From a virus (Duplodnaviria > Heunggongvirae > Uroviricota > Caudoviricetes), in IMG/VR virus record IMGVR_UViG_3300007734_000754, positions 1 to 64,000 of that record: a stretch of DNA of 64,000 nt; one strand, given 5' to 3'. The position numbers and the translations under genes were made by a program. Positions within the stretch are counted from its first letter, which is position 1; the number at the start of each line of letters is the position of its first letter. The notes under the pieces were generated by a model, which saw only the letters and a program-made list of their open reading frames with translations, was not told where the DNA came from and did no database searches. This document shows positions 2,294 through 21,007 of this stretch, one piece after another.

Positions 2294-2300
2294 ATCAATC

Positions 2301-2339
2301 AAGGCTTGTTTTTTCAAGCCTTTTTTCTTATATTATAGT
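2301..2339 (+). terminator. intrinsic terminator hairpin (aaggcttg-ttttttc-aagcc + T-run) followed by a promoter-like TATATTATAG box
   Basis: Perfect 7-bp stem plus U-tract. An identical 39-nt element recurs at 61894..61932. Confidence 0.6.
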
Positions 2340-2356
2340 TATATAAAAATGTTATT

Positions 2357-3548: not shown

Positions 3549-3583
3549 GGGTATATTTATATATAAATATAATTATATAAACT

Positions 3584-3766: not shown

Positions 3767-3770
3767 TTAC

Positions 3771-5216
3771 ATGAAAGAAAAATTTCGTTATGTTAAGAAA
3801 GAGGATCGTAAGAAGATTCTTTTGTTATGCGATGATATTAGGATGCATTCCGGTATCGCAACTATGGCTAGAGAGATTGTTGTAGGAACAGCACATCACT
3901 TCAATTGGCTGAATGTAGGAGCAGCAATTAATCATCCTGAAGTAGGAAAAGGGTTTGATATCTCTCCCGAAGTAAATACTATTGCAGGATTAGATGATTC
4001 ATGGGTAAGAGTACTACCTAGTAATGGTTACGGAGATGCAATGCTTGTTAGAAATTTAATCGCTCAAGAAAAGCCAGATGCAATTTTTATCTTCACTGAT
4101 CCAAGATATTGGACTTGGTTATTTGAAATTGAAAGAGAAATTAGAAGTCAAATTCCAATCCACTATTTAAACATTTGGGATGATCTTCCAACACCTCTTT
4201 ATAATAAATCATACTATGAATCATGTGATTTATTGATGGCTATCTCAAAACAAACTAAAAATATTAATGAAATAGTTTTAGGAGAAACAGCTAAAGATAA
4301 AATTATCAAGTATGTTCCTCATGGAATAAATCATGAGCACTTCTTTCCTATTAGACAAGGTCATGAACATTACGATGTACTACAAGAGTTTAAAAAGAAT
4401 ATGTTTGGTGGAAAAGAGATTGACTTTATAGTTTTATTTAATTCAAGAAACATCAGAAGAAAATCACCAGGGGATGTAATTCTTTCTTATAAAATGTTTT
4501 GTGATTTAATTGGAGAAGAAAAATCAAAACGATGTGCTCTTGTAATGCATACACAACCTGTAGATGAGAATGGTACAGATCTTTATGCAGTAAGAGAAGC
4601 TCTATGTGATGAAAATTACGTAAATGTATTTTTCTCTCAGGATAAATTAGAAACTCCGCAGATGAACTTGCTTTACAATATAGCAGATGTAGGATTACTT
4701 ATTACTTCAAACGAAGGATGGGGATTATCTTTAACTGAAACTATGATGGCTGGTAGAATGATTATTGCAAACGTTACTGGGGGTATGCAAGATCAAATGA
4801 GATTTACAGATAAAGATGGTGAGTGGATTGACTTTAGTTCAGACTTCCCTTCTAATCACAGAGGAACTTATACAGATTGTGGAGAGTGGGCAGTACCGGT
4901 ATTCCCTTCAAACATATCCTTAGTTGGATCAGTTCCTACACCTTATATCTTTGATGATAGATGTGCCCCGGAAGATGTAGCAAAGGCTATTGAGCAGGTA
5001 TATAACATGCCTAAAGAAGAGAGAGATGCTAAAGGACTAAAAGCAAGAGAATGGGTAACATCGGATGAATCAGGAATGTCAGCAAGACAAATGTGTGAGA
5101 ATGTAATAGATGCAATGGATGAATCATTTGAAAAGTTCACACCAAGAGCAAGATTTGAATTATATAAAATAGAAGATAGACCAAAGAAACGTATAACACA
5201 TAAATTATTATACTAA
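3771..5216 (+). CDS. glycosyltransferase family 4 (GT-B fold)
   Basis: EGWGLSLTETMMAG matches the GT4 E-x7-E donor-binding motif. Confidence 0.7.
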   Translation: MKEKFRYVKKEDRKKILLLCDDIRMHSGIATMAREIVVGTAHHFNWLNVGAAINHPEVGKGFDISPEVNTIAGLDDSWVRVLPSNGYGDAMLVRNLIAQEKPDAIFIFTDPRYWTWLFEIEREIRSQIPIHYLNIWDDLPTPLYNKSYYESCDLLMAISKQTKNINEIVLGETAKDKIIKYVPHGINHEHFFPIRQGHEHYDVLQEFKKNMFGGKEIDFIVLFNSRNIRRKSPGDVILSYKMFCDLIGEEKSKRCALVMHTQPVDENGTDLYAVREALCDENYVNVFFSQDKLETPQMNLLYNIADVGLLITSNEGWGLSLTETMMAGRMIIANVTGGMQDQMRFTDKDGEWIDFSSDFPSNHRGTYTDCGEWAVPVFPSNISLVGSVPTPYIFDDRCAPEDVAKAIEQVYNMPKEERDAKGLKAREWVTSDESGMSARQMCENVIDAMDESFEKFTPRARFELYKIEDRPKKRITHKLLY

Positions 5217-5219
5217 GTT

Positions 5220-6512
5220 ATGAATAAACCAACAGTAGTAGTAAGTTGTCCAATTGACACTTACTCAGGATATGGAGCAAGAGCAAGAGATTTCGTACAA
5301 TCAATTATCGATTTAGATAAGTACGATGTAAAAATATTAGGACAAAGATGGGGAGGAACCAGATTTGGATACTTAAAAGATCACAACAACGAATCTTTAG
5401 CATCTAGAATTATTCCGCAAATGACACAGCAACCAGATATCTGGATCCAAATTACAGTACCAAATGAATTTCAAAAGGTTGGTAAATATAACATTGGAGT
5501 AACAGCAGGAATTGAAACAACACTTTGTGACGGTTCTTGGATTGAAGGTTGTAATAGAATGGACTTAGTTCTAGTATCAGCACAACATGCTAAAAAGGTA
5601 TTTGAAGAAAGTAAATTCAATTTACAAGATAATCAAACAGGACAAATTACAGGTCACCTAGCATTAACAACAAAAGTTGAAGTTGTATTTGAAGGAGCTG
5701 ACATAGAGAAATATACACCATTAGCTTTTCCAACTAAAATAGATCTTTCAGATATAGATGAACAGTTTTGCTTTCTAACAGTAGGTCACTGGCTTCCAGG
5801 AGAGGTAGGAGAGGATAGAAAGAATATAGGATACACTATTAAAGCATTCTTAGAAACATTTAAGAATAAACCTAAAGGAAAACGTCCAGCACTTATCTTA
5901 AAAGTACAAGCAGGAATTGGAACTTCTATTATGGATAGAGAGGAAGTATTAAATAAAATTGATACAATAAGACAGACTGTAAAAGGTGATCTACCAAACA
6001 TTTACCTACTACATGGCGATATAACTGATGCTGAAGTAAATGAATTATATAATCACGGTAGGGTAAAAGCAATGATTTCTCTTACAAAAGGAGAAGGATT
6101 TGGTAGACCTTTACTGGAGTTTAGTTTAGTAAATAAGCCAATTATAGCTTCTTTCTGGTCAGGACATACAGACTTTTTAGATGCTGAATTTGTAAAGTAT
6201 GTAGGAGGTAAACTTACAAACGTACATCCTTCTGCAGCAGTCGATAAAATGTTATTAAGAGAAAGTCAATGGTTTTCACCGGATCCTATCGAAGTAGGTA
6301 GAGCATTTAAAGACATTTACGAAGATTACGATAAATGGAAGACTGCAGCAAAAAGACAAGGACATAAGAGCAGAACTAACTTCTCTTATGAAAAGATGAG
6401 AGAGACGGTAGATACCCTGTTAACACAACATATTCCCGAGTTTCCTAAGCAAGTTCAATTAAAATTACCACAATTGAAAAAAATAGAGTTACCTAAATTA
6501 AATAAAGTATAA
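5220..6512 (+). CDS. glycosyltransferase, GT4-like
   Basis: GEGFGRPLLEFSLVNKPIIAS resembles the GT4 E-x7-E region. N-terminal Rossmann-like half. Confidence 0.5.
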   Translation: MNKPTVVVSCPIDTYSGYGARARDFVQSIIDLDKYDVKILGQRWGGTRFGYLKDHNNESLASRIIPQMTQQPDIWIQITVPNEFQKVGKYNIGVTAGIETTLCDGSWIEGCNRMDLVLVSAQHAKKVFEESKFNLQDNQTGQITGHLALTTKVEVVFEGADIEKYTPLAFPTKIDLSDIDEQFCFLTVGHWLPGEVGEDRKNIGYTIKAFLETFKNKPKGKRPALILKVQAGIGTSIMDREEVLNKIDTIRQTVKGDLPNIYLLHGDITDAEVNELYNHGRVKAMISLTKGEGFGRPLLEFSLVNKPIIASFWSGHTDFLDAEFVKYVGGKLTNVHPSAAVDKMLLRESQWFSPDPIEVGRAFKDIYEDYDKWKTAAKRQGHKSRTNFSYEKMRETVDTLLTQHIPEFPKQVQLKLPQLKKIELPKLNKV

Positions 6513-6970
6513 TGGAAGAAAAAATGATAGACTGTCCACATTGTGGAGGAAATGCCTGCTACCAGCAGGAAGTAACTAAAGAAGTAACAACACAGTTTTG
6601 TTTTGGATGTGGCTTTACAACATCTACTCTAATGGTTGAAGGATCAAAAGTAGTATCAGACTGCTTAGAAACTTCTCCAGAACTTTATAAAGACTTAATG
6701 TTTGTTGACGAAAATAAGCAGGTGTGGTTTCCATCCACTATAACTCTTCCTGAGAAAGGAATGGTATTCTTAGATGGAACTTCTAAAGAAAATTGGAAGT
6801 GGGCAGCAGTAACAGCTACAAAAATCTTAGAAGAAGAAAAATCTAAGTTCCCAAAAGAGCAAACACACAAAATGAACATGAAAGAAATAAAACACTTTGA
6901 ACAAAGAGATTTTATGGATTCATTAGATGTAATAGGATTTTTCGATATAGAAGTTGCTTCTGAAGAATAA
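6512..6970 (+). CDS. hypothetical protein with N-terminal zinc ribbon
   Basis: CPHCGG...C-x17-CFGC four-Cys arrangement. ATGG overlap with the upstream gene. Confidence 0.4.
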   Translation: MEEKMIDCPHCGGNACYQQEVTKEVTTQFCFGCGFTTSTLMVEGSKVVSDCLETSPELYKDLMFVDENKQVWFPSTITLPEKGMVFLDGTSKENWKWAAVTATKILEEEKSKFPKEQTHKMNMKEIKHFEQRDFMDSLDVIGFFDIEVASEE

Positions 6971-6988
6971 ATTTCATATATTAATATA

Positions 6989-7603
6989 ATGAAAATAAGT
7001 TATGCAATAACAGTTTGTAATGAATTGGAGGAAGTGAAAAGACTAGTCAACTTCCTCCTTTCTAACAAACGAAAAGAAGACGAGATAGTAATCTTGTTTG
7101 ATGAGAAGAACGGAACAGATGAAGTATTTGATTATATAGAATCTCAAGTTCATGACTGTGAAGTCTTCTGTGAAAAGTTTCAAGGGCACTTTGCCGATTG
7201 GAAAAACTTACTAACATCACACTGTACAGGAAATTATATCTTCCAAATAGATGCTGATGAAATTCCTCATATCAATTTAATTGAAAACCTACCGGAAATG
7301 CTGAAGACTAATGATGTCGATATGCTTAGAATACCTAGAGTAAATACTGTAGAAGGATTAACAGAGGAGCATATTAGGAAGTGGAGATGGAATGTAAATG
7401 AAAAAGGATGGGTGAATTGGGCCGATTGGCAAATGAGAATTTACAAGAATGCTCCTCACATAAAATGGGTCAATAAAGTACATGAAGTATTACAAGGATT
7501 TAAGATTCATGGGATGCTTCCACCGGAAGAGGAATGGGCCTTATATCATCCAAAGACAATCGACAGACAAGAAAGACAAAATAACTACTATGACACACTC
7601 TAG
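6989..7603 (+). CDS. glycosyltransferase family 2-like (GT-A fold)
   Basis: Weak GT2-type N-terminus (ITVCNE...) with a D-x-D-like acidic stretch. Confidence 0.4.
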   Translation: MKISYAITVCNELEEVKRLVNFLLSNKRKEDEIVILFDEKNGTDEVFDYIESQVHDCEVFCEKFQGHFADWKNLLTSHCTGNYIFQIDADEIPHINLIENLPEMLKTNDVDMLRIPRVNTVEGLTEEHIRKWRWNVNEKGWVNWADWQMRIYKNAPHIKWVNKVHEVLQGFKIHGMLPPEEEWALYHPKTIDRQERQNNYYDTL

Positions 7604-8441
7604 TCCGTTAACACATTGTATATCAACATATAACAACTTGCCGTACCTAAAACTGGCAATAGAGTCTGTAAGAAAGAATTCATATTATAAGGATGCTCCT
7701 TTTATTATACATGCTGAAAATTGTACAGATGGAACAAATGCATGGTTAGTAGAGAATGCTGAGAGGTATAATCTACAATACTATGTGGATGTTCATAACG
7801 AATCTCCAAAAGGTATTGGAGGTGGAATGAATTTCTGTGCTGAAAAAGTAGAAACAGAATACATAAACTTTCTTCATTCAGACTTCTATGTTACTAAGGA
7901 TTGGGATATAGAATTACTAAAGATACATCAAGCACATTCAGAAGAAAAATTATGGGTTAATTCCTATAGAGTAGAACCTAATATGTTTGACTCTCCTCAA
8001 AGGTACGGTACCTTACTAATAGGTAAAGATATTTTTGGAGGCTACCATGATAACTTCTTAGCTCAAGCATTTGAGAATTGGGTTGAAGAGTTGAAAGGAA
8101 TGAATGACTACTTTGAAATCCCTAAAGGAGAAGGAGTATCAGGATTAGTAAAAAAATCTGTATGGGATGAAGTTGGAGGTAATGATCCAAGATTTGCTCC
8201 AACCTCTTGGGATGATATGGATTTGTTTTTAAGAATGTTACAACACGGAGTTCGATTTATATTACCGTTTAGTTCGATTGTATGGCACTTTGGAGCAAGA
8301 GGTTCTCATAGATTAGAAGAAAATGAAGGACAGTCCTCTCAAAGACAAAAACAGGCAGAGCAAAAAAATATCTCTAAATGGTTGGAGAAATGGAAAAAAA
8401 TGCCTATCTTTGATGAATACGGAATGATAAAACAGTTTTAG
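7590..8441 (+). CDS. glycosyltransferase family 2-like
   Basis: Internal ATG start chosen (track ORF 7482..8441 overlaps the previous gene out of frame). LTHCISTYNNLPYLKLAIESV and ENCTDGT resemble the GT2 signature and DxD region. Confidence 0.5.
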   Translation: MTHSSPLTHCISTYNNLPYLKLAIESVRKNSYYKDAPFIIHAENCTDGTNAWLVENAERYNLQYYVDVHNESPKGIGGGMNFCAEKVETEYINFLHSDFYVTKDWDIELLKIHQAHSEEKLWVNSYRVEPNMFDSPQRYGTLLIGKDIFGGYHDNFLAQAFENWVEELKGMNDYFEIPKGEGVSGLVKKSVWDEVGGNDPRFAPTSWDDMDLFLRMLQHGVRFILPFSSIVWHFGARGSHRLEENEGQSSQRQKQAEQKNISKWLEKWKKMPIFDEYGMIKQF

Positions 8442-8442
8442 T

Positions 8443-9639
8443 TTGAAAAAAAATATATTAATATTTGCATCTGATGAACGAGCTACTTTAGAACTAGTAA
8501 ATGTAGTAAAAGAGTTAGCAAAGCAAGAAGAAATAAACTACTTCTTTCTATATAGTAATGCGGTAAGTACACAGCATCCTAAGTATAATCTAGATGCATT
8601 TAACTACGACAGTAATATTGAATCTACTGTTCCTAAATATTCATTTCCATCATTAGGATGTGCATTACCTTTCATACCAGACCTAGTACTTATTACTAGA
8701 GAAAACTGGTTACCGGAGAAAGAAATACTATTAGAGTGTAAACAGGCAGGGAGTATTATAGTTAATCTAGAAAATTCAAGCTGGTTATACAACAACATTA
8801 AAACAAAATTAGAACTATTAAGTAGAAAATCTTTTCCAACTAACTTAATAGACGTATATCTAGACCACAGTAAGTGGGTATTAGAAACAAAAGAATTAGC
8901 TGATTGGCCTACATATAAGTCAAAAGTAATAGGAGTTCCTAAATTTGATAACTTAAAAGATATCGAACCTGTACATAAGGATAAGCCTATCATTATTGTA
9001 TATGGATCAATGGAAGTAAATATTCGACCAAGTATTATAAATAAGTTAGACTCAATCGAAAAAAATCTTACTGATAAATTTCAAATTTACTATAGACCAC
9101 ACCCAAAAGAGTTTGAAGATTTCTCTTCTGATTTTGAGAATAATTACCTAAAGGAATACCCCACTGTTACGGTAATACATAACGAGCAGGATTTACCTGC
9201 AATAGTAAAAGCATCTGATATCAATATAGGAATATACTCCTCAGTAATGTTCTATGCACTTTTACTTGATAAAAAAATAGTATATATTGATTCAGATATC
9301 TCAGGAGTATCTTCTGATCTAAATATAGAAAGTTTTAAAGGTCATGAATATAATTTCTGGGCACCTATTATTAACGTTAGTTCTTTTGAAGAATTTGTAG
9401 ATAAAATAGGGGTGGACTTTATAGAAGCATCTAAACAAAGAAATACATATTTAGAAAATAAAATACAAAAATGCTTAATAAAGTATACAGATAATTTTAG
9501 TTGGATAGAGAATAATATATTATCTAATAATAAAGAACTGCTTTCATTCTACGATGAATTTGCAGATTTTAAAGCATCACAAAGAGTAGTACAATTAATA
9601 AAAACAATCATAAATAATGAAAGAGAATTTTTACAGTAA
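8443..9639 (+). CDS. hypothetical polysaccharide-biosynthesis protein (possible GT-B-like)
   Basis: 398 aa within the glycan island. No decisive motif; lacks the PseG IGxGH signature. Confidence 0.35.
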   Translation: MKKNILIFASDERATLELVNVVKELAKQEEINYFFLYSNAVSTQHPKYNLDAFNYDSNIESTVPKYSFPSLGCALPFIPDLVLITRENWLPEKEILLECKQAGSIIVNLENSSWLYNNIKTKLELLSRKSFPTNLIDVYLDHSKWVLETKELADWPTYKSKVIGVPKFDNLKDIEPVHKDKPIIIVYGSMEVNIRPSIINKLDSIEKNLTDKFQIYYRPHPKEFEDFSSDFENNYLKEYPTVTVIHNEQDLPAIVKASDINIGIYSSVMFYALLLDKKIVYIDSDISGVSSDLNIESFKGHEYNFWAPIINVSSFEEFVDKIGVDFIEASKQRNTYLENKIQKCLIKYTDNFSWIENNILSNNKELLSFYDEFADFKASQRVVQLIKTIINNEREFLQ

Positions 9640-12466: not shown

Positions 12467-12467
12467 T

Positions 12468-13157
12468 ATGAAAGATATTAAAGATACAGTTTTTATTATA
12501 CAAGCCCGAACACAATCAACTCGAGTACCGAATAAAATGCTTAAACCATTTGCTGATTCAAACTTATTTGAAATAGCTATTCAGAAGGTATTAAAATCAG
12601 CTATCATACCAAAAGAGAACTTTTACCTTTCGATAATGGACCAAGAGCTTATTGACATTGCTGAAAAGTACGGGGTTAATTATTTTGTAAGAAGTGAAGA
12701 GTCTACACAGGAACCTGTAACATTACAAAAAGCTTTAGAATGGTATAGCCATTTACCGTTTCTAAACTTTGTTATCATAAATGCTTGTAATCCTTTACTC
12801 AAGGTTGAAACAATTGATAACTTTGTTAAAAAGTTTTTAGAAGTTGAATCAAACGGATTGTTTGGAGTATTTGAAAAAAAGACATTTTTATTTGGAAATG
12901 ATGGTAGAATGTTAAATCAATTTAATGGCGAGGATAAATACCTAGCAACACTAGAAACCAAATTTGTTGAGACTTGTTACGAAGCAGCACATTCCCTTTA
13001 TGCAGGAACTACAGAAGATATAGGTAACGGTATTTACATGGGAACATTTAAGGAAAGTAACAATCCAAGTTTCTTTGTAATGGATGAAATTGAATGCTTT
13101 GACATCGATTGGCCATGGCAATTTGAAGTAGCAGAAAAACTTTATAAGACATTATGA
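12468..13157 (+). CDS. CMP-nonulosonic acid synthetase (acylneuraminate cytidylyltransferase family, PseF/NeuA-like)
   Basis: VFIIQARTQSTRVPNKML matches the cytidylyltransferase N-terminal signature (AIIPAR.GSKR.P.KN). Confidence 0.65.
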   Translation: MKDIKDTVFIIQARTQSTRVPNKMLKPFADSNLFEIAIQKVLKSAIIPKENFYLSIMDQELIDIAEKYGVNYFVRSEESTQEPVTLQKALEWYSHLPFLNFVIINACNPLLKVETIDNFVKKFLEVESNGLFGVFEKKTFLFGNDGRMLNQFNGEDKYLATLETKFVETCYEAAHSLYAGTTEDIGNGIYMGTFKESNNPSFFVMDEIECFDIDWPWQFEVAEKLYKTL

Positions 13158-13963
13158 AAGCAATCATAATAGGTGGTGGATCAATAGGGCAGAGACATTC
13201 TAGAAATCTTAATGAATTAGGAATTACTACCCGTATTGTAGATGTTGATGAAATTGATAACATAGATATTATATTAACAGAAGGATTTAATATAGGCCTT
13301 ATTTGTACACCTAACATTTTTCATATTGAGCATTGTAAAAAACTTGCAGAAAATAATGTACATATCTTCTGTGAAAAACCTTTCTATACAGATTATAAAG
13401 GAGTTGAAGAATTATTAGAAATTATATCTGCAAATAGTATTACGACTATGGTAGGATGTAATCTAAGATTTACTCCTGAGGTAGAGGCAATAAGCCAAGG
13501 TACTAAATATATAAGTGTATATTTTGGATATAACCTTAAACAGTGGAGACCTGGGACTGATCATTTAAAATCCTATAGTGCTAACAAACATTTAGGAGGA
13601 GGCATACTATTAGATGCAATTCATGAATTAGATTATCTTTATTATAAGTTTGGAGATATCAAAAATATTTCTTATATTAAGAATAAGATAACAGATAATA
13701 CAAATGATACAGAAGATCTTGTAGTAGGTAGAGTAGAGTTTGAAAATGGTACTATAGCTGATTTTCATTTGAATTATCTCTCTGAAACATATCAACGTTA
13801 CTATGATATATTAGAATCAGATTCTCTGAAGAGAGTAGATTTTATTATTAATAATGAAATGTACGTTAAGGAATTAACCTATTTTGTAGATTGTATAAAA
13901 AATAATAAACGTTGTATGAATAGCTTCGAAGAAGCTGCTTATCTGTTAAAAAAATTAATATAG
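13154..13963 (+). CDS. Gfo/Idh/MocA-family NAD(P)-dependent oxidoreductase
   Basis: N-terminal Rossmann IIGGGSIGQRH and the conserved EKP motif. ATGA overlap with the upstream gene. Confidence 0.65.
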   Translation: MKAIIIGGGSIGQRHSRNLNELGITTRIVDVDEIDNIDIILTEGFNIGLICTPNIFHIEHCKKLAENNVHIFCEKPFYTDYKGVEELLEIISANSITTMVGCNLRFTPEVEAISQGTKYISVYFGYNLKQWRPGTDHLKSYSANKHLGGGILLDAIHELDYLYYKFGDIKNISYIKNKITDNTNDTEDLVVGRVEFENGTIADFHLNYLSETYQRYYDILESDSLKRVDFIINNEMYVKELTYFVDCIKNNKRCMNSFEEAAYLLKKLI

Positions 13964-13964
13964 T

Positions 13965-14831
13965 ATGAAAAGGTATATTGATAGTAGTTGGAAAGGTATA
14001 GCTAAAGGTCATACAGCATTTTGTATACTGGGAGGTCCGTCCGTGAAGCAAGTCACAGATATACAGAACATAATTCAGAATAACTTTACAATTACAGTAA
14101 ATCATAATATAAAACTTTTTCCAAATGCTGACCTATATCTTACAGCAGATAATTCAATAGCTAGAGAATACTTAGAGGATAAGTCATTCTTCTTACATAA
14201 ATTCAGAGGAGGTAAATTAAATAAGTATTCATCAAACTTTCAATACGATGAAGAGCCTATGTGGATAGACGGTAAGAGAGAAGTATTATTGCAGAATAAA
14301 GATTTAATAAAAATTGTAGCTTGTAATGAATTTCCAAGTTACAATTATTCAATGACTACAGGGCAGTTATACAAAGGGTATGGTGAAGAGTACTGTAACT
14401 ATATCGATAACTTACACCTTTGTCTAGAATATAGAAATGAATTAGGAGAGTCTTGGCCAGTACTAAGTCCGGAGATAGAGGAGACAATTAGTAGGTATGG
14501 TACAAATCCATCAAAGCTCTATCCTGGAGGTAATATAGCAGGTACTCTATTTCAACTTCTTTACTATATGGATTTCGATAACGTAATAGTAGTAGGGTAT
14601 GGAGATAAAGGAGAGTCAGCTGGATATACACCAGGAACTCAATTTGAATGGAGTAGTGAAGAGATTCATGCTATAGTTGTTCACAGTATGAAATGGGGAG
14701 ATAGATTAAAATCTCTGCATGGATCAGAACTTTGTAAAGAATATGTTGACTTTAAAACAGCTTCGTATGACGAATTCGAAACAACACCTAATAAGAAAAA
14801 TCAATTAGTACAAAAATTATTACAGATATGA
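13965..14831 (+). CDS. possible DUF115/Maf-like (MptE-like) nonulosonic-acid transferase
   Basis: GHTAFCILGGPSV...ITVNHN...PNADLYLTAD follows the G.TAFIVG.GPS...I.CD...PD pattern of motility-accessory-factor (Maf) domains. Confidence 0.3.
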   Translation: MKRYIDSSWKGIAKGHTAFCILGGPSVKQVTDIQNIIQNNFTITVNHNIKLFPNADLYLTADNSIAREYLEDKSFFLHKFRGGKLNKYSSNFQYDEEPMWIDGKREVLLQNKDLIKIVACNEFPSYNYSMTTGQLYKGYGEEYCNYIDNLHLCLEYRNELGESWPVLSPEIEETISRYGTNPSKLYPGGNIAGTLFQLLYYMDFDNVIVVGYGDKGESAGYTPGTQFEWSSEEIHAIVVHSMKWGDRLKSLHGSELCKEYVDFKTASYDEFETTPNKKNQLVQKLLQI

Positions 14832-15808
14832 GTACATTTATAATAGCAGAAGCAGGAGCTAATCACAATAGAGAGTTTAAAAAAGCTATAGAGTTAATCG
14901 ATGTAGCAAATCAAGCAGGAGCCGATGCTATAAAGTTTCAGACTTACTCTTCGGAAACTTTATATAGTAAATTTACACCAGACTTTGCAGGATATACTAA
15001 TATTAATAAATTAATAAAAGATATTGAATTACCTAGAGAGTGGCAAAAAGACTTAAAGCAGTACTGTGATGAGATTGGTATTGAGTTTATGTCAACTCCT
15101 TTTGATGAAAAAGCAGTTGATGAGTTAGTTGGATTAGGAGTTAAGAGATTAAAGATAGCAGGATTCGAATCAACAGACTTTAGATTTGTTGACATGGTAG
15201 CTTCTTCAAAGTTACCACTTATTATTTCATTAGGTATAGGTTTCCAAATGCGATGGATAGGTAAGCTTTTTGATATTACAAATAAGTACGGTAATGATTT
15301 AACATTATTACACTGTAACAATGCCTACCCAACTCCATTAGAAGACATAGACTTAAATGTTATTAAAGCTCTTTCTCTAGATAGTAGGTATAAGACAGGA
15401 CTTTCAGATCATACAGTATCAACACTAACACCAGCTCTAGCAGTAGCTGCAGGAGCTACGGTTATTGAAAAACATTTTACATTAGATAAAACATTACCAG
15501 GACCTGATCATCCGTTTGCATTAGAACCTAATCAGTTAGTTGAAATGGTACAATTTGTCAGACAAGCAGAACTTTGTCTTATCCCACAGAGAGGTGAATA
15601 CAGTAAGTCAGAAGAAGCTTTTAAACAAGCAAGAAGATCTGTAGTAGCTAAGTCTGCAATCAAAAAAGGAGAAATATTAACAATTGATAACATTACAACA
15701 AAGAGGCCTTTCCTTGATAATTCAATACCTGCTAATAAATTTGAAAATATGTTAGGGAGTATTTCAAATAAGGACTATAACGAAGATGAATTTATATGTA
15801 TAAAGTAG
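14828..15808 (+). CDS. pseI: nonulosonic acid synthase (NeuB/PseI family) with C-terminal SAF domain
   Basis: FIIAEAGANHNREFKKAIELIDVANQAGADAIKFQTY is the NeuB N-terminal signature. C-terminal VVAKSAIKKGEILTIDNITTKRP matches the SAF domain. Confidence 0.85.
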   Translation: MSTFIIAEAGANHNREFKKAIELIDVANQAGADAIKFQTYSSETLYSKFTPDFAGYTNINKLIKDIELPREWQKDLKQYCDEIGIEFMSTPFDEKAVDELVGLGVKRLKIAGFESTDFRFVDMVASSKLPLIISLGIGFQMRWIGKLFDITNKYGNDLTLLHCNNAYPTPLEDIDLNVIKALSLDSRYKTGLSDHTVSTLTPALAVAAGATVIEKHFTLDKTLPGPDHPFALEPNQLVEMVQFVRQAELCLIPQRGEYSKSEEAFKQARRSVVAKSAIKKGEILTIDNITTKRPFLDNSIPANKFENMLGSISNKDYNEDEFICIK

Positions 15809-16437
15809 AAAAAGCATTAAGAAGAGCAACAATGGAGGATTGGAAAATTCTACTTGACTGGAGAAATGAACCATTAACAAGGCAGAATTCGTTTCAATCG
15901 GAAATAATTAATGAAGATGATCATAAAGAATGGCTTAGTAAAAGCCTTGCAAATCCGGATAGAGAAATTTATATACTTGAAGGAGATAATGGACCTTTAG
16001 GTACCATTAGAAGTGATAAGGTTAGAAACGGCAGTAAAGACTGTAAACTCTCTTGGTCAACCTCGCCAGAGTTTAGAGGAAAAGGGTACGGTACATTAAT
16101 GTTAAAAATGTTCTTACAATTTAGAAAAGGAAAATATTTAGCATGTATTAAAGCAGATAACTTAGCTTCAATTTCAATGGTAGAAAAAAATCATTTTACA
16201 TTAATTACTAGTGATTCTTCAGACCAACATGTTTACTATAGAGATAATACTATTTCAGATTTTGAAATTATTGATGAGATAGAGAAAGTAAGAAGTCGTA
16301 ATAATGTTAATTGGATGGATATCTTACGTATCGGTTTTACGTATGCTCCTGAAGAGACTAGAGAGGTATTTAAAAAAATAACAAGTGATGATAATTTAAT
16401 TAACGAGCTATCAAAACAATTAGCGAATAATGGATAA
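15796..16437 (+). CDS. pseH: GNAT N-acetyltransferase, PseH-like
   Basis: LLDWRNEPLTRQNSF ... WLSKSL ... EIYILEGDNGPLGTIRSD matches the PseH pattern (W-R-N motif, acetyl-CoA fold). Confidence 0.55.
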   Translation: MYKVEKALRRATMEDWKILLDWRNEPLTRQNSFQSEIINEDDHKEWLSKSLANPDREIYILEGDNGPLGTIRSDKVRNGSKDCKLSWSTSPEFRGKGYGTLMLKMFLQFRKGKYLACIKADNLASISMVEKNHFTLITSDSSDQHVYYRDNTISDFEIIDEIEKVRSRNNVNWMDILRIGFTYAPEETREVFKKITSDDNLINELSKQLANNG

Positions 16438-17290
16438 TAGAATACAAATACTATTACATATCTTTCCTAGAGAAATTGATGATCTAGATAATGTAGTAAC
16501 TCAATTAAAAGTTTGTTCAAAATATATTGAAAATCTTTCAGTTGATATGAATATCACTTTAAATCTAAACCCAGAAATAATAAACTGGGAGGAAAGTTTA
16601 GTACCTAAACAGTTTATTATAGATAAGTTTAACCATATAGTTACTAAGCTTGATTGGACCAATAAAAATATTACTAACATCGTAGAGGATACCTCAGTAT
16701 ATGGATACCTTGAACTAAGAGCAAAACTTACACAAGATCATCCAGACTATACCGGATACATTTTCTTAGACCCAGATATGATATTAGATGATAGAGTTTT
16801 TTATTTTCTAGAACACTCTCTTAAACAAATACCATCCGGAAGCTTTATAGTATCACCGCAGATGTATAGATTTTGGGATAGTAGCTGGGATGTAATAAGC
16901 TATGACAAATCTAATAGCCCTGGATTTGATGTGAATACTTTTGATCCGTATGATGTTAAGGTACTAAATAACAGTAATATTGAATTAATTACTAACTACA
17001 ATGTAAAATTTGCTGGTGGGTGGTTTACTTATTTGAGTAAAGAACTTTTAGAACAAGTACCTTTCCCAGAAGGAGTAAAGGGTTACGGACCAGAGGATAC
17101 ATTTATTTCAATATTTGCTAGAAAGAAAGGATTTCCTCAGTACATAATAAAAGGAGTTGTAGTACAGGAAAATAGAAAGTATCTTAATAATTACATATAT
17201 ACTCCGTATATAAAATACTATTCAGAAAAACTAAAAGAAATTTCAGAGGCAACTAAAGAACTTTTTAATAAAGCAATCAATACACTATAA
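16430..17290 (+). CDS. hypothetical glycan-island protein
   Basis: Coding-quality ORF with ATGG overlap. No clear motif. Confidence 0.4.
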   Translation: MDNRIQILLHIFPREIDDLDNVVTQLKVCSKYIENLSVDMNITLNLNPEIINWEESLVPKQFIIDKFNHIVTKLDWTNKNITNIVEDTSVYGYLELRAKLTQDHPDYTGYIFLDPDMILDDRVFYFLEHSLKQIPSGSFIVSPQMYRFWDSSWDVISYDKSNSPGFDVNTFDPYDVKVLNNSNIELITNYNVKFAGGWFTYLSKELLEQVPFPEGVKGYGPEDTFISIFARKKGFPQYIIKGVVVQENRKYLNNYIYTPYIKYYSEKLKEISEATKELFNKAINTL

Positions 17291-18480
17291 TGGAAAAAAT
17301 AACATTCTGCATACCCAGTAAATCCAACTTAAGATATTTAAAGACATGTATACCTTCGATTAGAAAGAATGCATTTAGACCGGATCATGATATTATCATC
17401 TTTGTCGATTCAGATGAAGACGGTACTATTGAATGGTTAGAAGAAGTTAAAGATGAATATAATTTAACTTACTATGTTAATCCTGATTTAGGTAATACTT
17501 TATTTGGAATTGGTAAAGCCTATGACTACTGTATTGAAAAGTCGACTACAGATATATTTATGATCTTTCATGCAGATATGATGTTAGGTAAAGATGCAGA
17601 TGTTAAAGCTTTCAATCAGTTGAAACCTAAGACAGTAGTTTGTGCAACTCGTATTGAACCGCCACTTCATCCAAATAATGGAGAGAAGATTTTATTTGAT
17701 TTTGGAATGTGGCCTGAAGAGTTTAAAGAGAACGAATTTAATAAGTATGTTGAAGAACATCTTCAAGATGAAAAAATTACTAATGGTATTTTTGCTCCTT
17801 GGATGATGTACAGACAAGAGTTTTTAGAGATTGGAGGCCATGATGCTATTATGCATTCATGTAGAGAGGACTCGGATGTATTTAATAGAATGAAACTAAA
17901 AGGATTTACTTTTATACAACCTTGGAATTCACTAGTATATCACTTAACGGGAAGAGGAGCAGGAAGTTTTGGAGGTGATGAGGTAAGACATATACAGTGG
18001 CAGAAAGATATGAATAACTCAACTAAAGAGTTTATCCGTAAGTGGGGTTCAAATGTAAACCATACAGCTTTAATGGAGCCGATTATATCTCCAAAATATA
18101 ACATAGCATATGTAGTTAAAAATTGTAACTTACAACTACTAGAAGTTTTAGAGCCTTGGTGTGATAGAATATATGTTAATGAACGATTTGAGGTAATTGG
18201 CAGGATGTGGGACTATATTGAACTAGAGCAGGAGAATACTTCATTTGATCTATCAAAAAGAGTTCTTACTATAGAAAATAATGATCCAATATTAGAGAAT
18301 GATATCGTTGTAGAGTTTGATGCTCATAAATTTACAAATGCAGACTTTGCTTTCTTGCAAAGGTTTCCTGAGGTAGTAAAAGATAATGGGGACATAGGGG
18401 AGTTTGAATTTGATATATTTAAAATAACAATCACCTCAATGACCGAGTATCAGGAAGACTTGGTAGTATGTAAAAATTAA
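17290..18480 (+). CDS. glycosyltransferase family 2-like
   Basis: FCIPSKSNLRYLKTCIPSIRKN and IIIFVDSDEDGT (DxD) are GT-A-type features. Confidence 0.45.
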   Translation: MEKITFCIPSKSNLRYLKTCIPSIRKNAFRPDHDIIIFVDSDEDGTIEWLEEVKDEYNLTYYVNPDLGNTLFGIGKAYDYCIEKSTTDIFMIFHADMMLGKDADVKAFNQLKPKTVVCATRIEPPLHPNNGEKILFDFGMWPEEFKENEFNKYVEEHLQDEKITNGIFAPWMMYRQEFLEIGGHDAIMHSCREDSDVFNRMKLKGFTFIQPWNSLVYHLTGRGAGSFGGDEVRHIQWQKDMNNSTKEFIRKWGSNVNHTALMEPIISPKYNIAYVVKNCNLQLLEVLEPWCDRIYVNERFEVIGRMWDYIELEQENTSFDLSKRVLTIENNDPILENDIVVEFDAHKFTNADFAFLQRFPEVVKDNGDIGEFEFDIFKITITSMTEYQEDLVVCKN

Positions 18481-18502
18481 ACTATTTATAACAAAACATA
18501 AT

Positions 18503-18859: not shown

Positions 18860-18864
18860 TTATT

Positions 18865-19071: not shown

Positions 19072-19108
19072 TTTAAGAATATCAGAAAAAAGTATACCAT
19101 CCGATATT

Positions 19109-19447: not shown

Positions 19448-19488
19448 AGTTCTTATCTTTAGGAAGTAATAATAAAAACAAATAAGTT

Positions 19489-20942: not shown

Positions 20943-21007
20943 AAAAGTTGCCTCTTCGGAGGCAATTTCTTATATTTAGGCATAGTAATCAATTAAATTA
21001 ATCAGTT

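What the first reader, a model, noticed from the sequence alone, without database searches (positions are those of the whole stretch)
3771..18480. Phage-borne nonulosonic (pseudaminic-type) acid pathway inside a 15-kb glycan island
Adjacent, co-oriented genes encode a PseB-like UDP-GlcNAc 4,6-dehydratase, an aminotransferase, a CMP-sugar cytidylyltransferase, a Gfo/Idh/MocA oxidoreductase, a NeuB/PseI-type synthase with SAF domain and a PseH-like GNAT. They are flanked by two GT4, at least three GT2-like transferases and several unknowns. Together these cover essentially every chemical step from UDP-GlcNAc to a CMP-activated 5,7-diacetamido nonulosonate, plus transfer. A lytic-looking tailed phage of a Bacteroidota-type host carrying its own Pse/Leg-like pathway is unusual. 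Possible roles are virion glycosylation (the YadA-like fibre at 57013..58680 or other fibres) or remodelling host surface glycans to block superinfection.
Basis: partly seen in the sequence, partly recalled or inferred. Interest (0 to 1): 0.8.

Follow-up and report, generated by a model that had tools for sequence, protein, structure and literature searches.

The report
Phage-encoded pseudaminic-like sugar pathway island
A large Flavobacterium-type phage carries genes to make and attach a nine-carbon, sialic-acid-like bacterial sugar, in a swappable cassette inside a sugar-coating gene island that hundreds of uncultured phages share, so these phages may have sugar "serotypes" as bacteria do.

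Summary
Window 3771-18480 is 16 tightly packed, co-oriented, soluble-protein genes in a relative of Flavobacterium myophage immuto.

The biosynthetic genes:
- a PseB-type UDP-GlcNAc 4,6-dehydratase (TDK + YxxxK motif)
- a class-III (HemL-like) aminotransferase
- a methyltransferase-like protein
- a CMP-sugar synthetase
- a Gfo/Idh/MocA oxidoreductase
- a NeuB+SAF synthase
- a PseH-like GNAT

Corrections:
- The aminotransferase is not PseC-type.
- No PseG or NeuC-type step was found.
- No enzyme reaches an equivalog cut-off, so "complete" and "pseudaminic" are only partly supported.

The wider context is new. The pathway is one swappable cassette inside a conserved frame found on at least 592 IMG/VR contigs. 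Close NeuB homologues sit on many 40-165 kb phage contigs. NeuB is nearly absent from 50,697 deposited phage genomes and from PHROGs.

The most likely function is cytoplasmic glycosylation of a phage component, probably virion proteins. Host-envelope remodelling is the main rival. I rate it a new variant of a known kind, interest about 0.7.

The parts
2301..2322 (+). Terminator-like hairpin upstream of the transcription unit that holds the island
   Evidence: 8-bp stem with 4 GC pairs followed by a T-run. It is one of the two strongest + strand sites in 2000-21500.
3771..5216 (+). GT4-like GT-B glycosyltransferase 'GT4a' (481 aa), part of the conserved frame
   Evidence: Pfam Glycos_transf_1 at 29.4 bits (cut-off 26.4) and PHROG 2170 at 9e-14. 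It is 84% identical to the immuto protein and conserved in related islands.
5220..6512 (+). GT4-like GT-B glycosyltransferase 'GT4b' (430 aa), the frame anchor
   Evidence: PHROG 2170 at 2e-14. Pfam Glycos_transf_1 is below cut-off. Relatives are found on at least 592 IMG/VR contigs. It is 41% identical to a protein of Microcystis phage Mel-JY01 and about 19% identical to structural-module GTs of Arthrobacter phages. The best PDB match of its profile is chlorovirus GT B736L, E 5e-4.
6512..6970 (+). Conserved 152-aa protein with an N-terminal CxxC...CxxC zinc ribbon, part of the frame
   Evidence: It is present after GT4b in every island examined. It has only faint Zn-ribbon Pfam hits. Function unknown.
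6989..7603 (+). Short GT2 glycosyltransferase (204 aa), the last gene of the conserved island head
   Evidence: Pfam Glycos_transf_2 at 43.7 bits. The order GT4b, Zn152, GT2s recurs in nearly all sampled islands. The two exceptions place another gene before this GT2.
7590..8441 (+). GT2 glycosyltransferase (283 aa from the likely start; the mechanical ORF starts at 7482)
   Evidence: Pfam Glycos_transf_2 at 46.8 bits and Glyco_tranf_2_2. The Logan gene call gives 283 aa. It is present in only some islands.
8443..9639 (+). TagB-like GT-B protein (398 aa), candidate CMP-NulO transferase
   Evidence: Pfam Glyphos_transf at 23.2 bits (cut-off 22.1). NCBIfam BFO_1060 family at 31 bits (cut-off 200). 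BFO_1060 is the Tannerella forsythia Pse/Leg-derivative transferase family (PMC5420450). Six of 12 phage homologues hit Glyphos_transf, and one fragment hits GT52 weakly. It carries a PHPxE motif. It accompanies every PseB-type NulO cassette. In the GT4b-anchored sample it appeared only in the one island with such a cassette.
9617..10630 (+). PseB-like UDP-GlcNAc 4,6-dehydratase (337 aa)
   Evidence: Polysacc_synt_2 at 258 bits. TIGR03589 PseB at 267 bits (cut-off 408), against FnlA 197 and LegB 53. The best PDB match is H. pylori PseB/FlaA1 (2gn4, 1e-60). It has STDKA...YGASK, with Tyr as in PseB rather than the Met of CapE/FnlA.
10620..11894 (+). Class-III (HemL-like) PLP aminotransferase (424 aa) in the slot that DegT/PseC occupies in type-B cassettes
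   Evidence: Aminotran_3 at 171 bits and PRK06209 at 319 bits (cut-off 486). PDB matches are GSA aminomutases at 5e-68, and also aminoglycoside C-6' aminotransferases. In L022 and L018 a DegT gene (best model PseC) sits in this position.
11894..12466 (+). 190-aa class-I methyltransferase-like protein in the variable 'tailoring slot'
   Evidence: Faint Methyltransf_23/25 hits. It has conserved FGCxxGRDF and GFDLA motifs. In relatives the slot holds a 315-aa methyltransferase or an Acetyltransf_6 protein.
12468..13157 (+). CMP-sugar synthetase (CTP_transf_3, 229 aa)
   Evidence: Pfam at 59.6 bits. The best NCBIfam model is PseF at 48.8 bits (cut-off 205.7). It is 82-87% identical in type-A relatives.
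13154..13963 (+). Short Gfo/Idh/MocA NAD(P) oxidoreductase (269 aa)
   Evidence: Pfam N- and C-terminal domains. It has an N-terminal GGGSIG motif. The best PDB relatives are YjhC (6o15, 2.5e-10) and 6z3b/6z3c (2.4e-8). It is found in type-A cassettes only.
13965..14831 (+). Minimal Maf-like / sialyltransferase-fold protein (288 aa), candidate CMP-NulO transferase
14828..15808 (+). Nonulosonic acid synthase (NeuB + SAF, 326 aa)
   Evidence: NeuB at 235 bits and SAF at 28.6 bits. TIGR03569 scores 298 (cut-off 400) and PseI 253 (cut-off 340). PDB matches are PseI 8h2c (4e-48), SpsE (4e-45) and NmNeuB (5e-42). Homologues at 67-79% identity lie on phage contigs.
15796..16437 (+). PseH-like GNAT N-acetyltransferase fused to a ~61-aa C-terminal module (213 aa)
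   Evidence: Acetyltransf_3 at 50.7 bits. The only NCBIfam hit is PseH at 52.7 bits (cut-off 93.1). The module is a separate ORF in relatives, or is fused to a PseJ-like formyltransferase.
16430..17290 (+). GT-A-fold glycosyltransferase (286 aa) with a conserved DxD
   Evidence: The AF2 model has pLDDT 92. Foldseek against the PDB gives E about 1e-6 to mimivirus R699, TarS and hyaluronan synthase. D114 is nearly invariant and D116 invariant.
17290..18480 (+). GT2 glycosyltransferase (396 aa), closing gene of the island frame
   Evidence: Glycos_transf_2 at 39.2 bits. It is 49% identical to the immuto WcaA-like GT and is present at the island end in most relatives.
20945..20968 (+). Terminator-like hairpin downstream of the unit (after the small ORFs, the DksA-like gene and the HNH gene)
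   Evidence: 10-bp stem with 4 GC pairs, the strongest site in the scan.

Best explanation
Window 3771-18480 is the glycan island of an Immutovirus-like Flavobacterium myophage. It has two layers.

The frame. GT4a, GT4b, a zinc-ribbon protein and a short GT2 open the island, and a GT2 closes it. This lineage of aquatic myophages shares the frame. (Shown.)

The middle cassette. It is interchangeable between phages. In this phage it encodes synthesis and transfer of a CMP-activated 5,7-diamino-tetradeoxy-nonulosonic acid, most likely of the pseudaminic (L-altro-derived) series.

Inferred route:
1. The PseB-like dehydratase (9617) converts UDP-GlcNAc to the UDP-4-keto-6-deoxy sugar.
2. The class-III aminotransferase (10620) adds the 4-amino group, standing in for PseC.
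3. The PseH-like GNAT (15796) N-acetylates it.
4. UDP is removed by an enzyme not identified here. It could be a host enzyme, an unrecognised phage enzyme, or one encoded outside the window.
5. The NeuB-type synthase (14828) condenses the sugar with PEP.
6. The cytidylyltransferase (12468) activates the product with CMP.
7. The Gfo/Idh/MocA oxidoreductase (13154) and the methyltransferase-like protein (11894) tailor the sugar.

Transfer. The TagB-like (8443) and/or Maf-like (13965) proteins transfer the nonulosonate. The six other glycosyltransferases build the underlying oligosaccharide.

Likely acceptor. All 16 proteins lack a hydrophobic stretch long enough for a membrane helix, and no lipid-carrier machinery is encoded. 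I therefore propose that glycosylation takes place in the cytoplasm on a phage-encoded acceptor, most probably virion structural proteins. This is how Maf enzymes glycosylate flagellin and how mycobacteriophages and chloroviruses glycosylate their capsids.

Confidence by sub-claim:
- makes a CMP-nonulosonate: about 0.85
- pseudaminic series: about 0.55
- acceptor is a virion protein: about 0.45
For: Gene content:
- Family assignments for the biosynthetic genes.
- PseB-type catalytic motif, with H. pylori PseB as the best solved relative.
- NeuB+SAF architecture, with PseI as the best solved relative.
- PseH and PseF are the best NCBIfam models for the GNAT and the cytidylyltransferase.

Pseudaminic series:
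- Sister type-B cassettes in the same island frame carry PseB-like, DegT (PseC 118 bits against LegC 79) and a PseJ-like formyltransferase (PDB 6ci2, 6e-42), next to a NeuB that is 67-75% identical to the window's.
- The HemL-like gene occupies exactly the DegT slot.
- The L. pneumophila Sg6/12 O-antigen NulO locus also has such an aminotransferase next to PseG and the CMP-synthetase (PMC3694923).

Transferases:
- Maf fold for ORF 13965.
- TagB/BFO_1060 relationship for ORF 8443, which co-occurs with PseB-type NulO cassettes.
- GT-A fold for ORF 16430.

The genes are functional in phages:
- The gene order recurs on 40-165 kb viral contigs.
- dN/dS is 0.05-0.28 with saturated dS.
- GC is uniform.

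A cytoplasmic, phage-encoded acceptor:
- No protein has a hydrophobic 19-mer above 1.6 on the Kyte-Doolittle scale.
- The frame GTs are shared, at 41% identity, with a Microcystis phage whose host envelope is unrelated.
- They are distantly related to an Arthrobacter-phage GT that sits between the tail terminator and the tail chaperones.
- Mycobacteriophage virion glycosylation is established (Freeman 2023, as cited in PMC12619734).
Against: - No PseG and no NeuC/LegG equivalent was found, so one step is unaccounted for.
- Every enzyme scores below its equivalog cut-off.
- The synthase scores higher on the NeuB/NnaB model than on PseI. JGI annotates homologues as legionaminate synthase.
- A class-III aminotransferase acting on a UDP-4-keto sugar has no characterised precedent that I know of.
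- The roles of the GFO and the methyltransferase-like protein are guesses.
- Nothing here shows glycans on virions.
- The island lies next to lysis and replication genes, not among structural genes.
- Scans of the window's structural proteins for Ser/Thr-rich tails or D(S/T)(A/I/L/V/M/T) motifs were uninformative.
- Peripheral, TM-less GTs also serve lipid-linked pathways, so the lack of TM segments does not exclude host-envelope targets.
Confidence: 0.5

Rival explanations
1. Host-envelope remodelling. The phage GTs and the CMP-nonulosonate act at the inner membrane on the host's undecaprenyl-linked O-antigen, capsule or general O-glycan intermediates. Host flippase and ligase or oligosaccharyltransferase then export the altered glycan. 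The modified surface blocks superinfection or stops progeny adsorbing to infected cells and debris.
For: [quoted passage not shown]
- The TagB-like protein's nearest named family is the Tannerella transferase, which adds Pse/Leg to a lipid-assembled protein O-glycan.
- Hypervariable cassettes between conserved flanks resemble bacterial O-antigen and capsule loci, as would be expected if they track host surface chemistry.
- Most bacterial O-antigen GTs are also TM-less.
Against: - The island has no initiating phosphoglycosyltransferase, flippase, polymerase, ligase or Gtr-type membrane protein.
- The phage looks virulent, with no integrase in the window or in the immuto annotation seen, so lasting seroconversion is not available.
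- The frame GTs are conserved between phages of Flavobacterium and Microcystis, whose envelope acceptors differ.
- Eight transferases is more than a simple modification needs.
Confidence: 0.25
2. The chemistry differs from pseudaminic acid. The cassette makes a legionaminic-series or other nonulosonate, for example a 4- or 8-epimer or an extra-amino derivative produced by the GFO and class-III aminotransferase acting as an oxidise-then-transaminate pair. This rival concerns the product, not the target.
For: - The synthase scores higher on TIGR03569 (298 bits) than on PseI (253 bits), and JGI labels homologues legionaminate synthase.
- B. subtilis SpsE, a PDB hit nearly as strong as PseI, belongs to a locus reported to make legionaminic acid (my knowledge of Dubois et al. 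2020, not checked here).
- The nearest solved relatives of the GFO are YjhC and 6z3b/6z3c. To my knowledge these are sialic-acid oxidoreductases that work through a 4-keto intermediate.
- Class-III aminotransferases act on oxidised sugar positions in aminoglycoside pathways (C-6' aminotransferase hits).
- The L. pneumophila locus with a HemL-like gene comes from serogroups whose LPS that paper's reference list (Knirel 2001) describes as a D-glycero-D-talo nonulosonate homopolymer.
Against: - The dehydratase is clearly of the PseB/inverting group (PseB 267 bits, LegB 53 bits; 2gn4 209 bits against PglF about 110 bits) and has the PseB Tyr.
- No NeuC-type 2-epimerase, which Leg routes need, was found.
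- The type-B sister cassettes have PseC-like and PseJ-like enzymes.
Confidence: 0.35
3. DNA hypermodification. The island glycosylates modified bases in phage DNA to evade restriction, as in T-even phages and the phage DNA-glycan systems described recently.
For: - Phage GT clusters can hypermodify DNA with diverse glycans (bioRxiv 10.1101/2023.12.21.572611; NAR 2026, listed).
- Hypervariability fits an arms race with nucleases.
- A PD-(D/E)XK nuclease gene sits directly upstream of the island in this window, in immuto and in Mel-JY01.
- immuto carries a 7-deazaguanine (DpdA/QueCDEF) system.
Against: - No hydroxymethylase or TET/5mYOX-type enzyme is in the window.
- immuto's ThyA homologue reaches the thymidylate-synthase equivalog cut-offs.
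- The DNA-glycan paper mentions no nonulosonate, sialic acid or NeuB.
- Mel-JY01 has the island frame but not the immuto-type DpdA.
- Maf-like and TagB-like enzymes are known to act on protein or glycan acceptors.
Confidence: 0.04
4. The genes are a recently captured, non-functional passenger block of host DNA, or an assembly chimera.
For: The enzymes are of bacterial type. The island middle differs from that of the cultured relative immuto.
Against: - The identical sequence is in two independent assemblies.
- The same cassette is found at 45-85% amino-acid identity in many phage contigs with conserved flanks.
- dN/dS is far below 1.
- GC matches the phage.
- No close NeuB relative was found in 185,579 GTDB species genomes by the peptide-pattern scan.
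Confidence: 0.02

Closest known systems
Bacterial CMP-pseudaminic acid pathway (PseB, PseC, PseH, PseG, PseI, PseF of H. pylori / C. jejuni) and its PseJ formyl variant
   Same: - A PseB-type dehydratase with TDK/YxxxK.
- A GNAT whose best model is PseH.
- A NeuB+SAF synthase whose best solved relative is PseI.
- A CTP_transf_3 activator whose best model is PseF.
- Sister cassettes with PseC-like and PseJ-like enzymes.
   Different: - A class-III HemL-like aminotransferase replaces PseC.
- There is no PseG.
- There are an extra Gfo/Idh/MocA oxidoreductase and a methyltransferase-like gene.
- All scores are below the equivalog cut-offs.
- The pathway is encoded by a virulent-looking phage, not a cell.
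Maf (motility-associated factor) flagellin nonulosonic-acid glycosyltransferases, e.g. Magnetospirillum Maf (PDB 5mu5)
   Different: - It is only 288 aa against about 630 aa and lacks the flanking domains.
- The direct sequence match to PF01973 is faint.
- The family is tiny (34 representatives).
- Flavobacteria are not flagellated (my knowledge), so the acceptor cannot be flagellin.
- It is absent from some type-A relatives and from type-B cassettes.
Tannerella forsythia Pse/Leg-derivative transferases Tanf_01245 / TFUB4_00887 (NCBIfam BFO_1060 family; TagB-like)
   Same: ORF 8443 has a Bacteroidota-type, TM-less GT-B with a TagB/Glyphos_transf domain and an HP-type motif. It is linked to a NulO pathway.
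   Different: - It scores 31 bits against a cut-off of 200, so it is not a member.
- The His of the HP motif is Tyr in the type-B homologues.
- The Tannerella enzymes cap a lipid-assembled O-glycan, and no such machinery is encoded here.
Virus-encoded virion glycosylation (mycobacteriophage Che8-type capsid/tail-tube glycosylation; chlorovirus and mimivirus autonomous glycosylation)
   Same: - The virus carries its own GTs and sugar-nucleotide enzymes.
- The GTs are soluble.
- There are weak similarities to chlorovirus B736L and mimivirus R699 and to a GT in the structural module of Arthrobacter phages.
   Different: - The searches run here found no report of nonulosonic acid synthesis in those systems. 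The giant-virus glycan review contains none of the terms.
- The locus here is far larger and cassette-variable.
- Virion glycans are not demonstrated.
Flavobacterium phage vB_FspM_immuto (Immutovirus), glycosyltransferase region gp181-gp169
   Same: - The same island frame and flanks: PD-(D/E)XK nuclease, GT4a (84%), GT4b (81%), Zn152 (74%), GT2 (63%), terminal GT2 (49%), DksA-like, HNH (88%).
   Different: immuto's middle cassette is a DegT aminotransferase, methyltransferase, mannosyltransferase, PglB-like acetyltransferase and epimerase set (a bacillosamine-like 6-deoxy-amino-hexose route). It has no NeuB and no CMP-synthetase.
Prophage-borne epaA/epaB of Acinetobacter baumannii
   Same: These are phage-carried nonulosonate enzymes. 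A CTP_transf_3 domain is coupled to oxidoreductases that tailor the nonulosonate. This parallels the adjacent 12468 and 13154 genes here.
   Different: They are two tailoring genes in temperate phages and depend on the host psaA-F genes. Here the core synthesis is phage-encoded and the oxidoreductase family differs (Gfo/Idh/MocA against aldo-keto reductase/SDR).

Membership tests
CMP-pseudaminic acid pathway | PseB: inverting UDP-GlcNAc 4,6-dehydratase of the Polysacc_synt_2 family with TDK and YxxxK catalytic residues | tested here: met
   The best NCBIfam model is PseB and the best PDB match is 2gn4. STDKA...YGASK is present. Caveat: 267 bits is below the equivalog cut-off of 408.
CMP-pseudaminic acid pathway | PseC: DegT/DnrJ/EryC1-type aminotransferase | tested here: not met
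   No DegT protein is in the window island. The only aminotransferase is class III, HemL-like. The type-B relatives do have one.
CMP-pseudaminic acid pathway | PseH: GNAT N-acetyltransferase | tested here: inconclusive
   PseH is the only NCBIfam hit, but 52.7 bits is below the cut-off of 93.1.
CMP-pseudaminic acid pathway | PseG: UDP-sugar hydrolase | tested here: not met
   No island protein matches a PseG model. Two unknowns fold as Maf-like and GT-A proteins, and the third looks like a methyltransferase. The part of the genome outside the window was not visible.
CMP-pseudaminic acid pathway | PseI: NeuB-family synthase specific for 6-deoxy-AltdiNAc | tested here: inconclusive
   The NeuB+SAF architecture is met. 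PseI scores 253 bits (cut-off 340) and NeuB_NnaB 298 bits (cut-off 400). The best PDB match is PseI.
CMP-pseudaminic acid pathway | PseF: CMP-Pse synthetase | tested here: inconclusive
   The CTP_transf_3 domain is met. PseF is the best model but scores only 48.8 bits against a cut-off of 205.7.
CMP-pseudaminic acid pathway | Product is 5,7-diacylamido-3,5,7,9-tetradeoxy-L-glycero-L-manno-nonulosonate | not testable with these tools
   Needs chemistry (NMR / LC-MS).
CMP-legionaminic acid pathway | Retaining 4,6-dehydratase (LegB or PglF type) | tested here: not met
   LegB scores 53 bits and PglF (5bjy) 111 bits, against PseB at 267 and 209 bits.
CMP-legionaminic acid pathway | Hydrolysing 2-epimerase (LegG/NeuC, Epimerase_2) | tested here: not met
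   No such match among the island proteins.
Maf flagellin NulO glycosyltransferases (PF01973 core) | Central MAF_flag10 / MptE-like catalytic domain | tested here: met
Maf flagellin NulO glycosyltransferases (PF01973 core) | N- and C-terminal flanking domains, about 600 aa in all, and flagellin as acceptor | tested here: not met
   The protein is 288 aa and only the core aligns. The acceptor is unknown.
BFO_1060 (Tannerella Pse/Leg transferase) family | Whole-protein score at or above the NF046086 cut-off | tested here: not met
   31 bits against 200. Only residues 212-343 align.
BFO_1060 (Tannerella Pse/Leg transferase) family | TagB/Glyphos_transf domain with DXD, D/E-D/E-G and HP motifs (PMC5420450) | tested here: inconclusive
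   Glyphos_transf is just above cut-off. The motif is PHPxE in type A but PYPGE in type B. The other two motifs are not clearly conserved.
Phage DNA glycosyl-hypermodification systems | An enzyme that creates a hydroxyl-bearing base (dNMP hydroxymethylase or TET/5mYOX) next to, or together with, the GTs | tested here: not met
   None was found among the window ORFs scanned. The immuto ThyA homologue is a bona fide thymidylate synthase.
Seroconverting phage O-antigen modification (GtrABC, Oac, Wzy-type) | Integral-membrane flippase, bactoprenol GT, polymerase or acetyltransferase | tested here: not met
   No island protein has a 19-residue window above 1.6 on the Kyte-Doolittle scale, and there are no such Pfam families.
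Virus-encoded virion glycosylation | Virus-encoded GTs plus glycans covalently attached to virion proteins | not testable with these tools
   The GTs are present. Virion glycans need glycoproteomics.

The most novel reading that the evidence does not exclude
These aquatic myophages carry a "glycan serotype" locus: a conserved glycosyltransferase frame with swappable sugar-pathway cassettes (pseudaminic-like, other NeuB-type, bacillosamine-like, or little more than the frame). The phage uses it to coat its own virion proteins with strain-variable, bacterial-type glycans. In this phage the glycans would be capped with a nonulosonic acid added in the cytoplasm by a new minimal Maf-like transferase. 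Virion glycan diversity would then be under diversifying selection, as bacterial O-antigens are.
Probability: 0.35. Interest if true: 0.85.

Novelty: new variant of a known kind. Interest (0 to 1): 0.7.

Why it matters
Nonulosonic acids (sialic, pseudaminic, legionaminic) are treated as cell-surface sugars of animals and bacteria. In phage biology they figure as receptors or as depolymerase targets.

Here the core of a Pse-like pathway and two candidate transferases are encoded by a whole lineage of abundant uncultured aquatic phages. They sit in a locus built like a bacterial O-antigen locus, with conserved flanks and a hypervariable middle.

If the acceptor is the virion, three things follow:
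- Phage particles in natural waters would carry strain-specific acidic glycan coats. These could affect adsorption, stickiness to particles and mucus, grazing, and recognition by host defences.
- Phage "serotypes" would become a measurable trait.
- Virus-autonomous glycosylation, known from giant viruses and mycobacteriophages, would extend to a new sugar class and a new host phylum.

The locus also offers testable enzymology:
- a class-III aminotransferase that seems to replace PseC
- a pathway with no recognisable PseG
- a 288-aa minimal Maf-like fold
- a set of N-acyl tailoring enzymes (formyl, deacetylase, FemAB-like, methyl) for making CMP-nonulosonate variants

A cultured relative (immuto on Flavobacterium sp. 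LMO8) gives an experimental entry point to the island frame.

Tried and rejected
1. Looking for the missing hydrolase or epimerase.
- Pfam at E up to 10, NCBIfam and PHROGs on the unknowns gave nothing PseG- or NeuC-like.
- Structure prediction and fold search showed that ORFs 13965 and 16430 are transferase folds, not PseG.
- The 190-aa ORF looks like a methyltransferase.
- Unknown ORFs of the type-B cassettes gave no PDB match. An all-against-all BLAST of the unknowns linked nothing useful.

3. A profile of the 8443 family against the PDB found nothing meaningful.

4. Searching for a bacterial donor locus. The GTDB scan with NeuB returned only a 37%-identical hit. The scan depends on exact 8-residue patterns, so this is weak negative evidence.

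5. Literature. Seven searches for phage- or virus-encoded nonulosonate pathways and for immuto found no precedent. Candidate papers checked by text search had none either:
- SugarBase
- the DNA-glycan paper
- the moraphage paper
- the NulO synthase phylogeny
- the Oceanospirillum phage paper
- the Bacillus jumbo phage paper
- the Prymnesium Kdn paper
The library lacks many subscription papers.

6. Acceptor hunting by composition of the window's structural proteins (Ser/Thr-rich tails, Bacteroidota D(S/T)(A/I/L/V/M/T) motifs) was uninformative.

7. Sigma-70 promoter scan: the number of sites equals the shuffled expectation, and Bacteroidota promoters are not covered by the scan.

8. Provenance look-up gave no names.

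9. DNA-modification rival, rejected as unlikely: there is no hydroxymethylase, immuto's ThyA is a true thymidylate synthase, and Mel-JY01 lacks the DpdA.

10. Artefact or passenger DNA, rejected.

Full report
**What is there.**
The region 3771-18480 holds 16 co-oriented ORFs that abut or overlap. Its base composition is indistinguishable from the rest of the window (GC 0.30-0.34). Two strong terminator-like hairpins, at 2301-2322 and 20945-20968, bracket a unit made of:
- a PD-(D/E)XK nuclease
- the island
- a few small ORFs
- a DksA-like gene
- an HNH gene

The window is phage DNA. It has about 80-82% nucleotide identity, in patches, to Flavobacterium myophage vB_FspM_immuto (160 kb, Immutovirus). 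It also encodes a GH19 endolysin, a holin, a baseplate wedge protein, a YadA-head fibre and a primase. The island sequence is identical in an independent Logan assembly and lies on a 114-kb JGI contig.

Profile searches reproduce each assignment:
- 9617: Polysacc_synt_2 / PseB-like
- 10620: Aminotran_3
- 12468: CTP_transf_3
- 13154: Gfo/Idh/MocA
- 14828: NeuB + SAF
- 15796: GNAT with PseH as its only NCBIfam hit
- two GT4-like and three GT2 genes

The dehydratase belongs to the PseB/CapE/FnlA group, not the LegB or PglF group. It scores 267 bits on PseB against 53 on LegB. Against solved structures, H. pylori PseB (2gn4) scores 209 bits and PglF about 110. It has STDKA...YGASK, with the Tyr of PseB rather than the Met of CapE/FnlA. 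No enzyme reaches its NCBIfam equivalog cut-off. The synthase scores 298 bits on NeuB/NnaB and 253 on PseI, although PseI (8h2c) is its best solved relative.

**The aminotransferase and the missing step.**
The aminotransferase is a glutamate-1-semialdehyde-aminomutase-like class-III enzyme, not a DegT/PseC protein. No PseG-type hydrolase and no NeuC/LegG-type epimerase was detected among the island proteins or the other window ORFs scanned.

**Resolving the unknowns.**
- A profile of this family finds only 34 representatives among 1.84 billion proteins. The most distant of them are genuine PF01973 (MptE-like) proteins, and several closer members show weak PF01973 hits. I therefore treat it as a minimal Maf-like, sialyltransferase-fold protein.
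- ORF 16430 (286 aa, pLDDT 92) is a GT-A glycosyltransferase with a conserved DxD.
- ORF 8443 just passes Pfam Glyphos_transf. It weakly matches NCBIfam BFO_1060, the family of the Tannerella forsythia Pse/Leg-derivative transferases shown by knock-out and complementation. Six of 12 phage homologues hit Glyphos_transf.
- ORF 11894 has class-I methyltransferase motifs.
- ORF 6512 is a conserved zinc-ribbon protein of unknown role.
- None of the 16 proteins has a hydrophobic stretch long enough for a membrane helix.

**Related loci change the picture.**
NeuB homologues at 67-79% identity are abundant in metagenomes. Where context is available they sit on 40-165 kb contigs with the same phage gene order. 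The peptide-pattern scan of 185,579 GTDB species genomes found no close relative. NeuB matches no PHROG family. It gives only three weak hits in 50,697 deposited phage records.

The island has a conserved frame:
- GT4a, GT4b, Zn152 and a short GT2 at the head
- a GT2 at the tail
- then the small ORFs, the DksA-like gene and the HNH gene

immuto has the same frame around a different, bacillosamine-like cassette. GT4b relatives occur on at least 592 IMG/VR contigs. Of 40 sampled islands with at least 9.9 kb downstream of GT4b:
- 7 contain a NeuB-family gene
- 22 contain a DegT-type aminotransferase
- the measurable gaps between the short GT2 and the first conserved downstream gene run from 2.9 to 7.7 kb

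The window's cassette, at 9.7 kb, is longer than any of those.

**Cassette types.**
- Type A, as in the window: PseB-like, HemL-like, CTP_transf_3, GFO and NeuB. A variable tailoring slot holds a methyltransferase, a FemAB-like Acetyltransf_6, or a formyltransferase with a PIG-L deacetylase.
- Type B: PseB-like, DegT (PseC 118 bits against LegC 79), NeuB and a PseJ-like formyltransferase (PDB 6ci2, 6e-42).
- Type C: a distant NeuB-like gene with CTP_transf_3 and no PseB.

All island genes compared between the window and L023 show dN/dS of 0.05-0.28 with saturated dS.

**How it most likely works.**
Shown: the gene families, the folds, the synteny and the conservation.

Inferred: the route from UDP-GlcNAc through a 4-keto-6-deoxy sugar, amination, N-acetylation, UDP removal, PEP condensation and CMP activation.

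Three points support the pseudaminic series:
- the dehydratase is of the PseB type
- PseH and PseF are the best models for the GNAT and the cytidylyltransferase
- the sister cassettes carry PseC-like and PseJ-like enzymes next to a 67-75% identical synthase

The HemL-like gene occupies exactly the DegT slot, which suggests non-orthologous replacement. A bacterial parallel exists in the L. pneumophila Sg6/12 O-antigen locus, where such a gene lies between PseG and the CMP-synthetase.

The nearest solved relatives of the GFO are YjhC and 6z3b/6z3c. To my knowledge these are sialic-acid oxidoreductases. Prophage EpaA/EpaB couple a cytidylyltransferase with oxidoreductases to epimerise Pse. I therefore assign the GFO a redox tailoring role, with low confidence.

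The step with no candidate enzyme is UDP removal.

**Which acceptor?**
Four points favour a phage-encoded acceptor, most plausibly virion proteins:
- There is no lipid-carrier, flippase, polymerase or Gtr-type machinery, and every protein is soluble.
- A Maf-like enzyme is present, and that enzyme family glycosylates a protein directly in the cytoplasm.
- The frame GTs are shared with Microcystis phage Mel-JY01 (41% identity, same nuclease-first layout), whose host envelope is unrelated.
- There are weak links to a structural-module GT of Arthrobacter phages and to chlorovirus and mimivirus GTs.

Against this, the island is not in the structural module, nothing shows glycans on particles, and TM-less GTs also work on lipid-linked intermediates. 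Host-envelope remodelling therefore stays a serious rival (about 0.25).

DNA glycosylation is unlikely (about 0.04):
- the window has no hydroxymethylase or TET-type gene
- immuto's ThyA homologue is a true thymidylate synthase
- Mel-JY01 lacks the immuto-type DpdA
- the phage DNA-glycan paper mentions no nonulosonate

**Comparison with what is known, and novelty.**
The components are known kinds: a Pse-type pathway, Maf-like and TagB-like transferases, and virus-encoded glycosylation. The following appears to be new:
- a phage lineage encoding the core of a nonulosonate pathway
- variant enzymology (a class-III aminotransferase, no PseG, an added GFO)
- a tiny, mostly uncharacterised family with a minimal Maf fold
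- a cassette-swapping "serotype-like" architecture of the phage glycan island

Literature searches found no report of a phage- or virus-encoded nonulosonate synthesis pathway. The nearest is prophage epaA/epaB, which tailor host-made Pse. The library does not cover all journals.

I rate this a new variant of a known kind, with interest 0.7.

Noticed in passing
window 15796-16437 (C-terminal ~61 aa); L006:2780-2965, L008:11390-11575, L018:6814-7563, L012:10966-11694: The last ~61 residues of the window's GNAT form a mobile module. In relatives the module is a separate 61-aa ORF right after a 139-aa GNAT. In type-B cassettes it is fused to the C-terminus of a PseJ-like formyltransferase. It accompanies whichever enzyme acylates the 4-amino sugar. 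Its function is unknown.
   Followed up: partly
window 2301-2322 and 20945-20968: Two strong terminator-like hairpins (each also reads as a hairpin on the - strand) bracket a roughly 18.6-kb unit: a DUF3310-like ORF, the PD-(D/E)XK nuclease, the island, small ORFs, the DksA-like gene and the HNH gene.
   Followed up: partly
window 2607-3548; L001:14837-15778; L107:8441-9337: A PD-(D/E)XK nuclease gene lies just upstream of the glycan island in this phage, in immuto and in Microcystis phage Mel-JY01. The linkage holds across distant phages and is unexplained.
   Followed up: no
L047, L051, L068, L104 (IMG/VR); L022:12361-14111: Other islands of the same frame carry a distant NeuB-like gene (25-30% identity; some are 283 aa, too short for a SAF domain) with a CTP_transf_3 gene but no PseB-like dehydratase. 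L022 has two NeuB and two cytidylyltransferase genes. This suggests further, different ulosonic-acid cassettes.
   Followed up: partly
L006:8685-9212, L007:9782-10309, L015:8620-9147, L016:9782-10309: A paralogue (37% identity) of the island's 190-aa methyltransferase-like protein lies about 1.2 kb downstream of the HNH gene, outside the island, in several relatives.
   Followed up: no
L105:26884-28155 (immuto, outside the window): immuto's thymidylate synthase homologue is 423 aa. It matches the TS models in two or three separate stretches, which implies a large insertion, yet it still reaches the equivalog cut-offs.
   Followed up: partly
window 28000-40000: This stretch has mostly short ORFs and shifting composition. 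GC is 0.365 with zero skew at 30-32 kb, then GC 0.27-0.30 with skew 0.21-0.30 at 32-38 kb. The window has no tRNA genes, although it encodes a CCA-adding/poly(A) polymerase-like protein (25338-26072).
   Followed up: no
window 24411-25250 and 25338-26072: An SPFH/Band-7 protein and a PolyA_pol head-domain nucleotidyltransferase are encoded between the island and the structural genes.
   Followed up: no
window 57013-58680: The fibre protein with YadA-head repeats (PHROG 25468, 3e-86) is 28% Ser+Thr, the richest of the structural proteins scanned. It is a conceivable glycan acceptor, but nothing here tests that.
   Followed up: partly
L003:3183-3899 and 4156-4308 compared with L005:3188-4309: In one metagenomic variant (L003) the TagB-like gene is broken into fragments, while near-identical contigs (L004, L005) keep it intact. 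This may be a natural loss-of-function variant or an assembly error.
   Followed up: no
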